42,260 nt of DNA from an uncultured Nitrososphaerota archaeon (GTDB lineage Archaea; Asgardarchaeota; Njordarchaeia; Njordarchaeales; Panguiarchaeaceae), in contig CAZWPQ010000003.1 in assembly GCA_964636085.1 (NCBI GenBank), positions 67,916 to 110,175 of the forward strand. Direction: 5' to 3'. Shown here piece by piece: positions 30,443-34,619 of this stretch. The translations under genes were made by a program, and so were the position numbers. The notes below the pieces were generated by a model. That model was not told where the DNA came from. It ran no database searches and saw only the letters and a program-made list of their open reading frames with translations. Numbering within the stretch: position 1 is the first letter of the stretch; each line of letters begins with the position of its first letter.

Positions 30443-30457
30443 GGAAAGTTTTATAAA
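30443..30457 (+). promoter_or_regulatory. BRE/TATA promoter for the Ubl-E2-JAB-E1 operon
   Basis: Purine-rich GGAAAG directly before TTTTATAAA, about 80 nt upstream of 30540. Confidence 0.55.
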
Positions 30458-30539
30458 TGTTATTTGGGTATCTTATACGCCTGCAGGAGAAAATAAGCAT
30501 CGTTTTAATACAGTTGAGCTCATGAGTTATATATAATGG

Positions 30540-31001
30540 GTGTTCGCATTGGCACTAAAGTATGTGGTCATAATAAATGGGATACCCATACCTATAGTAC
30601 GTAAGGAAACTATAACAAGAATTATCGAAGACAAAGCCACGTTTCAGGATGTAAAAGAAGAGGTCGGGTATGTGCTAGATCATATCACAGAAGTACTGGC
30701 GATGGAGGGAGTAATTGAGATCCTAATGCAGTTTACTGAGGATTTTGATACGCGTGAATATGTGTTAAAATTGAAGAATATACTAAAATTGCTGGACGAG
30801 GGTGAGAAGCAGGGTATGGGTTCATCAATTGCTGTCAGATTTGAGCAGAGTGGTGAGAGATTTAGTGTAGTGCAGGCATATGATATCAAACTTTCCTATG
30901 TGGAGCCAGAACCCATAAACACTAAGCTCGGGTTTGTATATGTGTATAGATTTGGAGTAGCAAGGATGGGAAGGGTTGGAAAACAAGACTTACAAGCTTG
31001 A
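30540..31001 (+). CDS. Putative ubiquitin-like (beta-grasp) protein with a helical insertion and short C-terminal extension
   Basis: KATFQDVKEEV resembles Ub SDTIENVKAKI, VRFEQSGERF resembles RLIFAGKQL, DIKLSYV resembles GRTLSDY, and the last strand VYVYRF leads to RMGRVG+KQDLQA. Supported by operon context. Confidence 0.5.
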   Translation: MFALALKYVVIINGIPIPIVRKETITRIIEDKATFQDVKEEVGYVLDHITEVLAMEGVIEILMQFTEDFDTREYVLKLKNILKLLDEGEKQGMGSSIAVRFEQSGERFSVVQAYDIKLSYVEPEPINTKLGFVYVYRFGVARMGRVGKQDLQA

Positions 31002-32364
31002 TGTTGATTTATTGGGAAGAAGAGTAATTGAACTGATCAAGGAGATAACCCCGATTTTTCTGCTCGATAATGGCTTTTATATACTATCAAACAGTGAGCT
31101 CCTTGCAAATAAAACAATTATATTAGAGGCTAAGGATGGATCCAAGGAAATATTTTTGACCGGACCAATGAGCCTAAAGTTTTTTTCTGAACTTATGTAT
31201 GCCCGATTGGGCCTATATGAGTATCTAGGTGCCCTAATACGTCAGACCGAAATGAGGTTAAGAGGTCTAATAAGTAGGGATATATCCTTAGATGTACTAG
31301 ATTATTGTAAGTATGTCGATTTCTTCCTAAGATTGGCAGAGAGAGAGTTTGGTGTGAAAAAGGATAAAATATTGTCCTTCGTTGAGGGATCCATGGCTGA
31401 GAGGGAGGTCTCAAAAGCCCTGATGTTTCTTCAGGAGGAGAAAAATAAGTCCCTGGAATTTCTCCACCAGTGGGATATAAAGAAACTATTGTTTCCAGAG
31501 GAAGGAAAAATTAGGGTAATAACAAAGAAGGGAATGCTGGAGTACGTAGTCGAGAAAGTAGACTCTAATGCGATTAGGATGCATGAAGAAACTAAGAAGG
31601 TTATCAAGACGCTGGGGGATGTGGGCAGGGTTTTCCTATTGATGGCCCTCAGAAATGTTGAAATAAGAAGGGTGAAGATAATATCACTATTAGAGTCACG
31701 CATAAGAAGCGGGATATTATCCTCAAGACAATTTATATTTGGCCTCACAAGAAAGCTACTAAATGAAGGGAGAATAGAGTTCCCAATTGAGGTTGAGGGA
31801 ATAAATACCTATTTAGGACTTAGAATCCATGATAGGAAGGTCTATGTTTTCCTTAGCACAGCCGATTATGTCGTTAGAGAAGTTTTGGATAAAAGGAGAC
31901 TGGGCACATATGTCTATTTTCCATCAGTTGATATATGTATCGAATTAAGGGCCGAAGATACAGAGGATGGGAGGTCTATAGTTTTTCCCGTAGAATCCCC
32001 CGTTATTATAGACTATTATGATCATCCATCCATAAGGAAAAGGAGGGGCGTTAGAGTAATTTGCCTAGGCAACCTCAGAGGGTATGTTGATCGCATAATA
32101 AACGTCGCTAAGGATGTCGCAAAGAAAGGTAGGAGTGTAGAATTAACTAATTATGGTATAACAATTGTTTCCGTTGAACAAGCGATTAAAGAGGCTTTGG
32201 TAACTACTTTTAGAATTATGAGGTATGGTTATGTTCCTGGAGCGAATCCATACAAGCATGCGGTCGACTGTGTGGGGTATGCAGGAGTAAGAGTTATTAA
32301 TAGAAATGAAATTTTAGAATTGAAGAATAGTGGTGTAGAAATTATAGATCCTTTTTCGGAGTGA
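30976..32364 (+). CDS. Putative E2/UBC-fold conjugating enzyme with a long N-terminal region
   Basis: HPSI(350-353)...VICLG(Cys363) resembles the UBC HPNI...ICL active-site motif; lies between the Ubl-like and JAB genes. Confidence 0.55.
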   Translation: MENKTYKLDVDLLGRRVIELIKEITPIFLLDNGFYILSNSELLANKTIILEAKDGSKEIFLTGPMSLKFFSELMYARLGLYEYLGALIRQTEMRLRGLISRDISLDVLDYCKYVDFFLRLAEREFGVKKDKILSFVEGSMAEREVSKALMFLQEEKNKSLEFLHQWDIKKLLFPEEGKIRVITKKGMLEYVVEKVDSNAIRMHEETKKVIKTLGDVGRVFLLMALRNVEIRRVKIISLLESRIRSGILSSRQFIFGLTRKLLNEGRIEFPIEVEGINTYLGLRIHDRKVYVFLSTADYVVREVLDKRRLGTYVYFPSVDICIELRAEDTEDGRSIVFPVESPVIIDYYDHPSIRKRRGVRVICLGNLRGYVDRIINVAKDVAKKGRSVELTNYGITIVSVEQAIKEALVTTFRIMRYGYVPGANPYKHAVDCVGYAGVRVINRNEILELKNSGVEIIDPFSE

Positions 32365-33191
32365 TGTGTATGTATGTCATACAAATATCCAAAGAAGTTA
32401 TGAACATAGTGAATGAGGTATGTAGACGGATACGGAGCGAGTGGTATGCCCTTTCACTTGGCACTTATCAAAGAAAGAAGGACATCCACATTTTTTGTAT
32501 CATTGACCTATTGATCCCTGAACAGGTTGCATCTTTTACTCATGTTGAGATCCCGCCTCAAGTAAACGTAGAGGTCGTGAGTAGAATTGAGGCTATTAGA
32601 AGCGAGGACAAGGATATGTTTTTGCTTGGTATGCTTCATTCTCATGGCGAATTTGATGTGTTTCATTCAAATGAGGATCTAAGAAACATTGACACGATAT
32701 TTGAATGTTTTTCCTCATATCTTCCATCATTTTATGGAATTGAAAGCTTAGTTGGTGTTTTCAAAGAAAAAATTGTAAATTTAGAGCCAATGATCGAAAA
32801 TAATTCTTTTAGAGGCATAAAAATGGATTTTGGGGCGACGAAAATCGAGATAGACTTCGGCGTCTTGATAAGGGATCCAAATTTCTTTGTAAAGTGGTAC
32901 AAGCATTTTTATGATATAAAATGTCTCTTCGAGGTGCTAAAAACGGTTTATAAGACATCGCCAATAATAAAGAATGTATCCAAGAATAAGCTGTATTTGA
33001 TTCCCAGTGTAGTCGTGAACAATAGGGGGGATGTCTTAGGGGAAGTGTTTATTTTTGAATCCAAAGCGGATGGTCTCTATAAGAAAACCGAAAAAGCTAA
33101 AATAGAAACAACTAGTATCTCTAAAAAGCCATATTTTCTAAGCAAGGAAAGAGTATCAGATATTATAGGAAGAGTAAAGGGAGTGATATAG
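32361..33191 (+). CDS. JAB/JAMM (MPN+) metallo-isopeptidase
   Basis: Complete JAMM motif E27...H93-S-H95-x7-S103-x2-D106 (LGMLHSHGEFDVFHSNED), plus IPEQV. Confidence 0.88.
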   Translation: MMCMYVIQISKEVMNIVNEVCRRIRSEWYALSLGTYQRKKDIHIFCIIDLLIPEQVASFTHVEIPPQVNVEVVSRIEAIRSEDKDMFLLGMLHSHGEFDVFHSNEDLRNIDTIFECFSSYLPSFYGIESLVGVFKEKIVNLEPMIENNSFRGIKMDFGATKIEIDFGVLIRDPNFFVKWYKHFYDIKCLFEVLKTVYKTSPIIKNVSKNKLYLIPSVVVNNRGDVLGEVFIFESKADGLYKKTEKAKIETTSISKKPYFLSKERVSDIIGRVKGVI

Positions 33192-34619
33192 CTGGGAAGT
33201 AGAAGTATTTTTGATAGGCAGACATACATAAGCTGGTGGAGTCAAGACAAGATACATAATACAAGTGTATATCTAATTGTGGATGAGCCATTAGGCTACC
33301 TAGCAGCGATTTCTCTAGTGGCTGTTGGTTATGGCAAAATATATATAATAGGATCCAGATTTGTGAAAGATTTCAAAATCTTGTTCTATGACTATACTGG
33401 AAATTTCCCCGAGGGGGTCTCCGAATTTGTAGATATTTATCTGGGCAGATATTTAATGGACTACGGCATAGAGATTATGCCAGTAACGATAAACTTGGTA
33501 TCAGATAGGGCGTTAAATTTAATAAAATGGATAATACATGACGACGACAATGAGAGAAAAATTTTACTAGACTTTTCGAATAGCCCAACAGTCAAATTTT
33601 ATGTCAGAAAACTCGCAAGGATGTTAGAATTAGATACATATATCGTATCTCTCGCAGGGGACCTTCGTTTTTACTGTTTCCCACGAGAATATAGTGAGGA
33701 TACTTCCGATATGCACAGAAAAATATATATAAGAGAACCCCCAGGATTTCCAGAGATATTTTCTAGAGCCGTAAAAGCTCAATCTGGCATAAGACTTGAC
33801 GAGCATCTATATTTGATGGCTAGTGGACTTGCATGTGGAGAGATTACCATGAATATACAGGACGAACAGTATGAAATCCACACACCAACACGAGAGATAG
33901 TATACCCATTTGAGGGACTACCCAAGTTCAGGAGAACCACTAGCTATTTTAGAAAAGTAGCGATTGTTGGATGTGGTGCTTTGGGCACATTTTATTCTAT
34001 TCAAATGGCTCTACTGATAAACATGAGGTTGCTTCGTGTAAAAGAGGTGGTATTTATAGATCCAGACGAGATAGAACTCGTAAATTTTAATAGACAGGTA
34101 TTATATTGGGGCAATACTGTTAAAGAGCCGAAGGCATATGTGATAGCGGATAGATTCCAGAGAATGGTATATGACCCCGTGATAACATACTACCATGAGG
34201 CCCGTTTTTCTGAAGTAAAGGATCGCTTGAGAGATGTTGATTTAATTGTGGAGGGAGTCGATACATGGGAGGCTAGAAAGGAGATAGCAAGATTTGCCAT
34301 AAAAAACAAGATACCGCTTATTACATCGGGAGTTGAGCTTCTTGCTGGGCATGAAACATATTACCAACCAAATAGGACATATTGTCCATTTCATTCCATA
34401 TCGTTAGATAAAAAAGTAGATCCCGTCAATACTACTGGATGCCTAAGGATAGATCCCTCCGTTATATTTACCAACATCACTATAGCCTCATCTGCAATAC
34501 TGAACTCCTTAGTGACCCAAGAACCGCTCAATGGCGTGATGTATTATAGTCTTAGGGGTGAATATGGTATCTATAAACGCTTTAGGCTCGAGAAATACAC
34601 GGGGAGCTGTGGGGACTAG
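33192..34619 (+). CDS. E1/ThiF-family activating enzyme with tandem degenerate and active adenylation domains
   Basis: C-terminal half: KVAIVGCGALG, DPDEIELVNFNRQ, K and GVDTWEAR. The frame is open upstream of the called GTG 33279 to CTG 33192, adding FDRQTYISWWSQDKIHNTSVYLIV; GGAGTGA RBS precedes the CTG. Confidence 0.82.
   Translation: MGSRSIFDRQTYISWWSQDKIHNTSVYLIVDEPLGYLAAISLVAVGYGKIYIIGSRFVKDFKILFYDYTGNFPEGVSEFVDIYLGRYLMDYGIEIMPVTINLVSDRALNLIKWIIHDDDNERKILLDFSNSPTVKFYVRKLARMLELDTYIVSLAGDLRFYCFPREYSEDTSDMHRKIYIREPPGFPEIFSRAVKAQSGIRLDEHLYLMASGLACGEITMNIQDEQYEIHTPTREIVYPFEGLPKFRRTTSYFRKVAIVGCGALGTFYSIQMALLINMRLLRVKEVVFIDPDEIELVNFNRQVLYWGNTVKEPKAYVIADRFQRMVYDPVITYYHEARFSEVKDRLRDVDLIVEGVDTWEARKEIARFAIKNKIPLITSGVELLAGHETYYQPNRTYCPFHSISLDKKVDPVNTTGCLRIDPSVIFTNITIASSAILNSLVTQEPLNGVMYYSLRGEYGIYKRFRLEKYTGSCGD

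What the first reader, a model, noticed from the sequence alone, without database searches (positions are those of the whole stretch)
30443..34619. Four-gene ubiquitin-like conjugation operon (Ubl - E2 - JAB - E1) built from highly divergent components
Seen: four overlapping or abutting genes behind their own BRE/TATA, with a complete JAMM motif, a ThiF/E1 nucleotide-binding motif, an HPSI...ICLG motif and a small first protein ending RVG plus 6 residues. Established: Ubl+E1+E2+JAB is the minimal conjugation/deconjugation set in prokaryotic systems (Caldiarchaeum/Asgard ubiquitin operons, bacterial Bil/Bub-type operons), whereas SAMP/UbaA sulfur-transfer systems have no E2. Inference: this is a distinct protein-modification system. 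Every component carries atypical extra sequence, and no RING E3 is present, unlike the canonical archaeal ubiquitin operon. Two of the four genes would probably be auto-annotated as hypothetical.
Basis: partly seen in the sequence, partly recalled or inferred. Interest (0 to 1): 0.92.

Follow-up and report, generated by a model that had tools for sequence, protein, structure and literature searches.

The report
Bil-like ubiquitin-type tagging operon, Njordarchaeales
This Asgard archaeon, whose lineage lacks the usual archaeal ubiquitin genes, carries a conserved four-gene operon that very probably tags proteins in a ubiquitin-like way, although the carrier (E2) role of the second protein is still only moderately supported.

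Summary
Four tightly packed + strand genes are conserved in the same order in two families of one Asgard order (Njordarchaeales), at 15-66% identity.

- Gene 1 models as a beta-grasp with a roughly 60-residue helical insert. It has an invariant Gly147 followed by 0-11 non-conserved residues.
- Gene 3 carries a complete JAMM motif.
- Gene 4 is a tandem-domain E1: a degenerate N-terminal ThiF-like half plus an active half. It really starts at 33192, not 33279.
- Gene 2 (462 aa) is an orphan. It has an invariant HP-x(11-12)-C-[LF]-G motif.

The E2 reading of gene 2 rests on several weaker lines:
- the motif itself;
- a suggestive profile-profile match to Asgard UBC enzymes (hhalign P 5.7e-4; 1 of 150 shuffles as good);
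- ESM Atlas leads to Prok-E2_D;
- a weak complex-prediction pass with gene 1;
- gene context.

No fold match to E2 was obtained.

The closest known system is bacterial BilABCD, which has the same gene order, tandem E1, tailed Ubl and no E3. Bil sequence models do not recognise these proteins, and the motif order differs.

Canonical E2, ubiquitin and RING were not found in this genome. In this genus the cassette sits beside a divergent ESCRT operon.

The scan has noted Bil-like cassettes on other DNA (DPANN archaea, bacteria, a virus), but not this family.

Verdict: new variant of a known kind.

The parts
30443..30460 (+). Candidate BRE/TATA-like promoter element upstream of gene 1
   Evidence: AT-rich 'GGAAAGTTTTATAAAT' read by eye. 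It is not conserved in an alignment of orthologous upstream regions. Untested.
30540..31001 (+). O1: ubiquitin-like modifier precursor (153 aa). Beta-grasp with a helical insert at about residues 35-94. Invariant Gly147 (codon 30978-30980) followed by the tail KQDLQA. The start may instead be TTG 30549.
30976..32364 (+). O2: candidate E2-like carrier (462 aa). N-terminal alpha/beta plus helical region 1-247. C-terminal domain 248-462 (31717-32361) with H350-P351 (32023-32028), C363 (32062-32064), G365 and a second near-invariant C432 (32269-32271).
   Evidence: Orphan family: 3 hits in 1.84 billion representatives. Found in 5/5 genomes of the genus and 2/7 of a sister genus, and in 0 of 386 other Asgard genomes. 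Conserved motif. hhalign against a diverse Asgard UBC profile: score 31.2, P 5.7e-4, probability 30%. ESM Atlas leads to Prok-E2_D. Weak complex pass with O1. No fold or HMM match to E2.
32361..33191 (+). O3: JAMM/MPN+ metalloprotease (276 aa) with a C-terminal extension of about 150 aa. E27 (32439-32441); H93..D106 (32637-32678).
   Evidence: Prok-JAB 6.7e-5, 23.2 bits, below the cut-off of 25. 25.0 bits in the six-frame genome search. The group B orthologue scores 29.5 bits. Motif residues invariant. Best solved relative: Caldiarchaeum Rpn11-like 6fjv, E 1.8e-4.
33192..34619 (+). O4: tandem-domain E1 (475-aa frame). Degenerate N-terminal ThiF-like half (about 33192-33880) and active adenylation half (Pfam match 33954-34409). 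GCGALG at 33969-33986. Crossover-loop Cys388 (446-aa numbering; 34440-34442).
   Evidence: ThiF 2.5e-27. PDB relatives: ThiF, UBA3, SAE2, UBA6. The N-terminal half of group B copies hits ThiF at 31 bits, above the cut-off. D261, R272, Q273, K285, D328 and the Cys are invariant in both groups. Start position. The six-frame search gives an open frame of 475 aa.

Best explanation
This is a self-contained, E3-less ubiquitin-like protein conjugation and deconjugation cassette of the BilABCD type, specific to Njordarchaeales.

Proposed cycle:
1. O1 is made as a precursor.
2. The JAMM protease O3 removes the short non-conserved tail and exposes Gly147.
3. The tandem-domain E1 O4 adenylates Gly147 in its C-terminal active half and takes it onto the invariant crossover-loop Cys388.
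4. The modifier passes to Cys363 of O2, the candidate E2.
5. The large N-terminal region of O2 probably selects targets in place of an E3.
6. O3 also reverses the modification.

Shown by computation: the beta-grasp fold and conserved terminal Gly of O1, the catalytic motifs of O3 and O4, the tandem E1, and the conserved gene order.

Inferred: thioester transfer through O2, which Cys is used, the targets, and the cellular role.

In this genus the cassette lies next to a divergent ESCRT-like operon. A role in membrane remodelling is therefore possible, at about one chance in three.
For: Gene order and tight packing are conserved on many contigs, in two neighbourhoods.

O1:
- Confident beta-grasp model. 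Only ubiquitin-family or other beta-grasp chains top two structure searches.
- Invariant Gly with 0-11 variable residues after it. Group B copies end in GG.

O3: complete JAMM motif and a Prok-JAB match.

O4:
- ThiF match with all adenylation residues and an invariant Cys.
- A second, degenerate ThiF half.

O2:
- Invariant HP-x(11-12)-C-[LF]-G. The His-to-Cys distance is 13-14 residues, against 10-17 in Asgard E2s.
- hhalign score 31.2, P 5.7e-4. Reversed controls scored 11-12, decoy profiles 13-23, and 1 of 150 block shuffles scored as high.
- ESM Atlas structure row: TM 0.51 over 147 residues, to a cluster in which 13% of members carry Prok-E2_D. Feature row: 0.83, to a cluster with 39% Prok-E2_D.

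O2 with O1, complex prediction: weak support.
- Score 0.60; best of 3 controls 0.00.
- The mark was reached by 58 of 80 solved complexes and 2 of 110 mismatched pairs. At 0.60 or under it was reached by only 7 of those 80, and by both mismatches that passed.
- The runs agree in at least 92% of contacts. Partner pLDDT is at least 84.
- My own alignments were used, so these counts hold only roughly.

Sulfur-carrier duties are covered elsewhere: three canonical stand-alone ThiF genes and two ThiS/MoaD matches above the family cut-off (plus one weaker) lie at other loci.

BilABCD has the same order, a tandem E1, a tailed Ubl, a pre-processing JAB and no E3 (PMC10557695).
Against: O2:
- It matches no E2 model in Pfam, NCBIfam or PADLOC, alone or across 16 family members.
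- It matches no PDB sequence.
- Its whole-chain model gave no E2 hit in Foldseek PDB, BFVD, VIA-align or the Atlas.
- The C-terminal domain could not be folded and searched alone.
- Against a narrow E2 profile the hhalign score was not above controls (8 of 120 shuffles).
- A single Prok-E2_D protein shows no similarity.
- A second near-invariant Cys (C432) could be the active one.

The E1 has no room for a helical CYS domain.

The cassette was found in only 2 of 7 genomes of the sister genus, so it is not essential there.

There is no expression or protein evidence.
Confidence: 0.66

Rival explanations
1. E2-independent conjugation, as in SAMP/UbaA. O4 alone activates O1 and transfers it to targets. 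O2 is not a thioester carrier but an adaptor, scaffold or main substrate that binds O1.
For: - No E2 family or fold match for O2.
- Archaeal SAMPylation needs no E2 (established knowledge; PMC2948915).
- The weak O1-O2 complex pass would fit a binding partner of any kind.
- O2 is three times the size of a normal E2.
Against: - The His-Pro...Cys-[LF]-Gly motif is invariant across copies only 15-20% identical.
- The profile-profile score against UBC exceeds the controls.
- O2 occupies the E2 slot of the Bil gene order.
- A mere substrate is unlikely to keep such a motif.
Confidence: 0.17
2. Sulfur-carrier pathway. O1 is thiocarboxylated by O4 and donates sulfur in a biosynthetic reaction that involves O2. 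O3 acts as the trimming peptidase, as in CysO/Mec+.
For: - Ubl plus E1 plus JAB sets exist in sulfur-transfer pathways (PMC1779556, listed; own knowledge for CysO/Mec+).
- Best E1 sequence relatives include ThiF and MoeB.
Against: - There is no rhodanese domain and no biosynthetic or PLP enzyme in the cassette.
- The E1 is a tandem pseudo-dimer, as in conjugating E1s.
- Canonical ThiF and ThiS/MoaD genes lie elsewhere in the genome.
- O1 does not match the ThiS family.
Confidence: 0.07
3. The chemistry is the same, but the role is antiviral defence, as for bacterial Bil. The position beside the ESCRT-like operon is then incidental.
For: - The architecture is Bil-like.
- The E1 weakly matches the PADLOC E1-E2 and BilD models.
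- The cassette is patchy in the sister genus (2 of 7) and sits in a different neighbourhood there.
Against: - It is present at the same place in 5 of 5 genomes of the genus.
- Neighbours are housekeeping genes, not defence islands.
- A 2026 survey of Asgard defence systems contains no occurrence of the term 'Bil' in a text search.
Confidence: 0.2

Closest known systems
Bacterial BilABCD (Type I and Type II, formerly CEHH/6C) ubiquitination-like operons (PMC10557695)
   Same: - Gene order Ubl-E2-JAB-E1.
- E1 with an inactive plus an active adenylation domain in one chain.
- Ubl with a conserved Gly followed by a few non-conserved residues, trimmed by the JAB.
- No E3.
   Different: - The host is an Asgard archaeon.
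- Only the E1 core weakly matches a Bil model (6.6e-6).
- O2 is about three times the size of the 100-190-residue E2s recovered here and carries His before Cys. BilB has Cys138 then His151.
- The E1 Cys sits in a short crossover loop, with no helical CYS domain.
- O1 has a helical insert of about 60 residues.
- In one genus the cassette is a fixed neighbour of an ESCRT-like operon.
Caldiarchaeum/Asgard eukaryote-like ubiquitin operon (Ub, E1, E2, RING E3, Rpn11-like; PMC5654768, PMC6043591, PMC9192718)
   Same: - Archaeal Ubl, E1, candidate E2 and a JAMM protease that processes a tailed precursor.
- The JAB's best solved relative is the Caldiarchaeum Rpn11-like protein.
- Placement next to ESCRT genes, as in other Asgard lineages.
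- The HP...C.G motif resembles Asgard E2 'HPN...C[VLI]G'.
   Different: - No ubiquitin-family (PF00240), UQ_con or RING match in the cassette or in the genome.
- UQ_con was found in 110 of 151 Asgard genomes, but in 0 of 5 in this genus and in 1 of the 9 other genomes of the order.
- No E3 gene.
SAMP/UbaA, Urm1 and CysO/Mec+ type Ubl systems
   Same: A beta-grasp protein with a C-terminal Gly, a ThiF-type E1 and, in some systems, a JAMM peptidase.
   Different: - Those E1s are single-domain homodimers, often with a rhodanese domain.
- They have no conserved Cys-bearing fourth protein.
- Canonical copies of such genes exist elsewhere in this genome.
Prok-E2_D / ThiF / JAB cassettes (an example in another Asgard genome, L085)
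   Same: A compact E2-E1-JAB set. The ESM Atlas placed the group B O2 C-terminal domain near clusters that partly carry Prok-E2_D.
   Different: - No similarity between the O2 profile and the L085 Prok-E2_D protein.
- Different gene order.
- Single-domain E1.

Membership tests
BilABCD | Operon order Ubl-E2-JAB DUB-E1 | tested here: met
   The order is as stated in PMC10557695.
BilABCD | Ubl with a conserved Gly followed by up to about nine non-conserved residues | tested here: met
   G147 is invariant in 9 sequences. Tails are 0-11 residues long.
BilABCD | E1 with tandem inactive and active adenylation domains | tested here: met
   The N-terminal half of group B copies hits ThiF at 31 bits. 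The halves align across both groups. Window copy: the Gly-rich loop is lost in the N-terminal half.
BilABCD | Mobile alpha-helical CYS domain bearing the E1 catalytic Cys | tested here: not met
   Only 18 residues lie between C369 and the invariant C388. There is no insertion in the alignment. The E1 was not folded.
BilABCD | E2 (BilB) with the catalytic Cys followed by a conserved His | tested here: not met
   O2 has the His 13-14 residues before the Cys. BilB residues are as given.
BilABCD | Recognition by the PADLOC Bil models | tested here: not met
   Only BilD matches, at 6.6e-6 and 23 bits, on the E1 core. There is no hit for O1 or O2, and O3 matches only a generic JAB model at 0.046.
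UBC/E2 superfamily (O2 C-terminal domain) | Match to an E2 family model (UQ_con, Prok-E2_A-E, UFC1) | tested here: not met
   No Pfam hit up to E 10 for any of 16 members. Prok-E2_D and Prok-E2_B were not found in the genome.
UBC/E2 superfamily (O2 C-terminal domain) | HPN-like His-Pro motif shortly before the catalytic Cys | tested here: met
   H350-P351...C363-L-G is kept in all 15 full-length members. The His-to-Cys distance is 13-14 residues, against 10-17 in Asgard E2s.
UBC/E2 superfamily (O2 C-terminal domain) | UBC fold | tested here: inconclusive
   Whole-chain model searches gave no E2 row. The helical N-terminal part filled the lists. The Atlas model of a group B copy gave TM 0.51 to a cluster partly Prok-E2_D. 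The domain was not folded alone.
UBC/E2 superfamily (O2 C-terminal domain) | Profile-profile similarity to UBC | tested here: inconclusive
   Score 31.2, P 5.7e-4, probability 30%; 1 of 150 shuffles scored as high. Not significant against a narrow profile.
UBC/E2 superfamily (O2 C-terminal domain) | Thioester with the Ubl | not testable with these tools
   Needs biochemistry.
JAMM/MPN+ (O3) | E...HxHx7Sx2D metal site and a family model match | tested here: met
   Motif invariant. Prok-JAB scores: 23.2 bits for the window protein, 25.0 in the six-frame search, 29.5 for group B, against a cut-off of 25.
ThiF/E1 (O4) | Family model match plus nucleotide-binding and catalytic Arg/Lys/Asp residues | tested here: met
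   96 bits. Invariant residues.
Canonical archaeal ubiquitin operon (Caldiarchaeum/Asgard) | Ubiquitin-family Ubl, UQ_con E2 and RING E3 | tested here: not met
   No PF00240, PF00179 or PF13639 match in the cassette or in the genome, which is 83% complete.
SAMP/UbaA sulfur-carrier type | ThiS/MoaD-family Ubl and a single-domain E1 | tested here: not met
   O1 has no ThiS hit. The genome's ThiS matches lie elsewhere. The E1 is tandem.

The most novel reading that the evidence does not exclude
Njordarchaeales have replaced the canonical Asgard ubiquitin/E1/E2/RING set with this E3-less, Bil-like cassette. Its carrier is a hyper-divergent UBC descendant fused to its own target-selecting region. 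The cassette tags cargo or components for the neighbouring divergent ESCRT machinery. Ubiquitin-ESCRT coupling would then survive with almost unrecognisable parts. It would also place a Bil-type architecture inside the archaeal lineage nearest to eukaryotes.
Probability: 0.2. Interest if true: 0.85.

Novelty: new variant of a known kind. Interest (0 to 1): 0.66.

Why it matters
Asgard archaea are used to reconstruct how ubiquitin signalling and its link to ESCRT arose. Njordarchaeales are reported to lack some ESCRT components (Vps28). Here they show no recognisable ubiquitin, E2 or RING.

A conserved, compact and complete Ubl system would change how that 'absence' is read. Two of its parts are invisible to standard annotation, and in one genus it lies beside a divergent ESCRT operon.

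It would also extend the Bil-type architecture (tandem E1, tailed Ubl, no E3) from bacterial defence into Asgard archaea. Four small-to-medium proteins make it directly testable in vitro.

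Tried and rejected
Searches for O2 relatives that found nothing beyond its own family:
- Exhaustive profile search of 1.84 billion representatives (3 hits).
- Word-indexed searches with the whole protein and with the C-terminal domain profile.
- PDB sequence profiles A5 and A9.
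- Pfam and PADLOC scans of all 16 members.

Profile comparisons that failed:
- hhalign with a narrow E2 profile was not above controls.
- Comparison with one Prok-E2_D protein was negative.

UFM1 idea (the RVG ending resembles UFM1, from my own knowledge): dropped. Group B copies end in GG, the E1 is tandem rather than UBA5-like, and O2 has an HP motif that UFC1 lacks.

Link between group B neighbours and the window's ESCRT genes: none by tblastn.

Promoter conservation: not seen.

Both structure-prediction jobs went on whole O2 and on O1. The O2 domain, O3 and O4 were therefore not folded.

Full report
**What is there**

Four + strand ORFs fill 30540-34619:
- O1: 30540-31001, 153 aa.
- O2: 30976-32364, 462 aa.
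- O3: 32361-33191, 276 aa.
- O4: listed from GTG 33279 to 34619, 446 aa.

O1/O2 overlap by 26 nt and O2/O3 by 4 nt.

The O4 frame is open and conserved from 33192, the codon after the O3 stop. It reads '..FDRQ..WW.Q.KI..TSV..', as in the orthologues. A DNA alignment shows TTG or GTG in orthologues exactly where the window has CTG. The six-frame genome search also reports a 475-aa frame. The four genes are therefore contiguous.

The upstream 'BRE/TATA' is an AT-rich, TATA-like stretch. I could not support it by conservation.

**Family assignments by sequence**
- O4 is a ThiF/E1 adenylyltransferase (Pfam 2.5e-27). It has weak hits to the PADLOC E1-E2 and BilD models. Its solved relatives are ThiF, UBA3, SAE2 and UBA6.
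- O3 is a JAMM/MPN+ protein. It scores 23.2 bits on Prok-JAB, just under the cut-off, and 25.0 bits in the six-frame search. Its group B orthologue scores 29.5. The motif E27, H93-x-H95, S103, D106 is invariant. The best solved relative is the Caldiarchaeum Rpn11-like deubiquitinase (E 1.8e-4).
- O1 and O2 match nothing in Pfam, NCBIfam, PADLOC or PDB sequences.

**Relatives and conservation**

O2 is a very rare family. It has three homologues among 5.8 billion clustered proteins and three representatives among 1.84 billion. One is labelled Candidatus Njordarchaeota.

Every contig that carries O2 has the same O1-O2-O3-O4 order.

A weak genome hit led to a second, much more divergent version ('group B') in a sister family of the same order. 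It has the same four genes in the same order plus a fifth unknown gene, and sits in an unrelated neighbourhood.

Among 400 Asgard genomes the O2 C-terminal domain was found in 5 of 5 genomes of the genus, in 2 of 7 of the sister genus, and nowhere else.

A four-gene unit kept together across 15-66% identity and two genomic contexts is strong evidence of one functional module.

**O1 is a ubiquitin-like modifier precursor**

The AlphaFold2 model is confident (pLDDT 87.7, pTM 0.82). Its order of elements is beta-beta-alpha, then a helical insert (about residues 35-94), then four further strands (97-101, 106-109, 124-128, 131-142).

Gly147 is invariant in nine sequences from both groups. The residues after it are not conserved and number 0-11. 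Two group A copies end exactly at GRVG. Group B copies end in GGG plus a tail, or exactly at RGG.

In the window, the tail codons lie inside the overlap with O2.

**O4 is a tandem E1**

The C-terminal half keeps the Gly-rich loop and the Asp, Arg/Gln, Lys and Asp residues of active adenylation domains. It also keeps a Cys (C388 in 446-aa numbering) in the crossover loop, invariant in both groups.

The N-terminal half begins with the E1-type 'DRQ' start but has lost the Gly-rich loop. In group B this half still hits ThiF above the cut-off (31 bits).

This is a single-chain inactive-plus-active pair, as in BilD and eukaryotic UBA1-type enzymes. There is no room for a helical CYS domain.

A Cys/His cluster (C369, H372, C444) that could bind zinc exists only in group A.

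**O2, the crux**

The model (pLDDT 76.7) shows an N-terminal alpha/beta plus long-helix region (1-247) and a C-terminal alpha/beta domain.

All 15 full-length members keep P342, H350-P351, C363-[LF]-G365, G418-Y419, G422-A423, P425 and C432. Asgard UBC enzymes collected here read 'HPN...C[VLI]G', with 10-17 residues from His to Cys. O2 has 13-14.

Tests of the E2 reading:
- hhalign of the domain profile against a narrow E2 profile was not above shuffled controls.
- Against a more diverse 39-sequence Asgard E2 profile it gave score 31.2, P 5.7e-4 and probability 30% over 137 columns. The alignment pairs HP, the Cys, and 'GA.P' with the E2 'PNP' motif. Reversed profiles scored 11-12 and unrelated real profiles 13-23. 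One of 150 block shuffles reached the observed score.
- The ESM Atlas model of a group B copy gave TM 0.51 over 147 residues to a cluster of which 13% carry Prok-E2_D. The feature search gave 0.83 to a cluster with 39% Prok-E2_D. These are leads only.
- Whole-chain fold searches gave no E2.
- Complex prediction for O2 with O1(1-147) returned weak support. Score 0.60; best of 3 controls 0.00. The mark was reached by 58 of 80 solved complexes and 2 of 110 mismatched pairs. At 0.60 or under it was reached by only 7 of those 80, and by both mismatches that passed. Runs agree in at least 92% of contacts, and partner pLDDT is at least 84. My own alignments were used, so the counts hold only roughly.

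Taken together I put the E2-like carrier role at about two in three.

**Context in the genome and phylum**
- Canonical UQ_con E2 was found in 110 of 151 sampled Asgard genomes. It was found in 0 of 5 in this genus and in 1 of the 9 other genomes of the order; that one has 12% contamination.
- The window's genome is 83% complete. It shows no ubiquitin-family, UQ_con, Prok-E2_B/D or RING_2 match.
- It does have three canonical stand-alone ThiF genes and two ThiS/MoaD matches above the family cut-off, plus one weaker, at other loci. Sulfur-carrier functions are therefore covered elsewhere.
- In all group A contigs with upstream sequence, the cassette follows deoC and the last two genes of what an earlier report of this scan calls a divergent ESCRT operon. 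I confirmed the synteny, not the ESCRT identity.
- Synteny of ubiquitylation and ESCRT genes is established for other Asgard lineages (PMC9192718).
- Group B lacks this neighbourhood.

**Comparison with known systems**

The closest is bacterial BilABCD (PMC10557695). It shares the order Ubl-E2-DUB-E1, the tandem IAD+AAD E1, a Ubl with a conserved Gly and up to nine extra residues trimmed by the JAB, and the absence of an E3.

Membership fails on several defining points:
- There is no CYS domain.
- The His/Cys order in the E2 is opposite.
- The Bil models do not recognise O1 or O2, and O3 matches only a generic JAB model at E 0.046.

Relative to the Caldiarchaeum/Asgard ubiquitin operon, the ubiquitin-family Ubl, the recognisable UBC and the RING are missing.

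I found no paper describing such a cassette in Asgard archaea.

The scan's own notes list Bil-like cassettes in DPANN archaea, bacteria and a virus on other DNA. None shares sequence words with this O2.

**Verdict**

The operon is real and conserved. It is very probably a ubiquitin-like conjugation system of Bil-like design, with two orphan components. The E2 role of O2, the targets and the cellular role remain to be shown. It is a new variant of a known kind.

Noticed in passing
window 33186-33300: The E1 gene has CTG at 33192, directly after the O3 stop (TAG 33189-33191). Orthologues have TTG or GTG at that position, and an SD-like GGGAGTGAT lies just upstream. The mechanical GTG start at 33279 would remove 29 conserved residues.
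   Followed up: partly
window 30976-31001: The non-conserved tail of O1 (residues 148-153) is encoded entirely within the overlap with the start of O2. Tail length may partly reflect gene overlap.
   Followed up: no
window 29726-30403: deoC lies on the + strand in the window. In L001, L003, L004, L005 and L006 it is on the opposite strand relative to the cassette: a local inversion.
   Followed up: partly
L046:11603-12454; L047:4177-5037: Group B cassettes carry a fifth co-directional, overlapping gene of 283-286 aa. It has no family match and no counterpart in the window.
   Followed up: partly
L085:1246-3412: Another Asgard genome (G163) holds a different compact cassette: Prok-E2_D (256 aa, 63 bits), single-domain ThiF (283 aa) and JAB (191 aa).
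   Followed up: partly
window 30976-31716 (O2 residues 1-247): The O2 model shows repeated helix plus four-strand modules. Residues about 159-229 align weakly to the N-terminal half of the UBC profile (P 0.015, not significant). This could mean degenerate UEV-like repeats, or nothing.
   Followed up: partly
window 32269-32271 (O2 C432): A second near-invariant cysteine lies in 'A-V-x-C' / 'E-C-G', after the conserved G-Y-x-x-G-A-x-P. It is an alternative active-site candidate.
   Followed up: no
G021:C11 and G042:C77/C191 (L035, L036, L039): the genome search flagged in-frame stops inside or at the edge of the O2 matches in two genomes of the genus. One copy is split over two contigs.
   Followed up: no
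window 27831-29701: The two genes before deoC (446 and 177 aa) are conserved with the cassette in all group A contigs, at 32-63% identity.
   Followed up: partly
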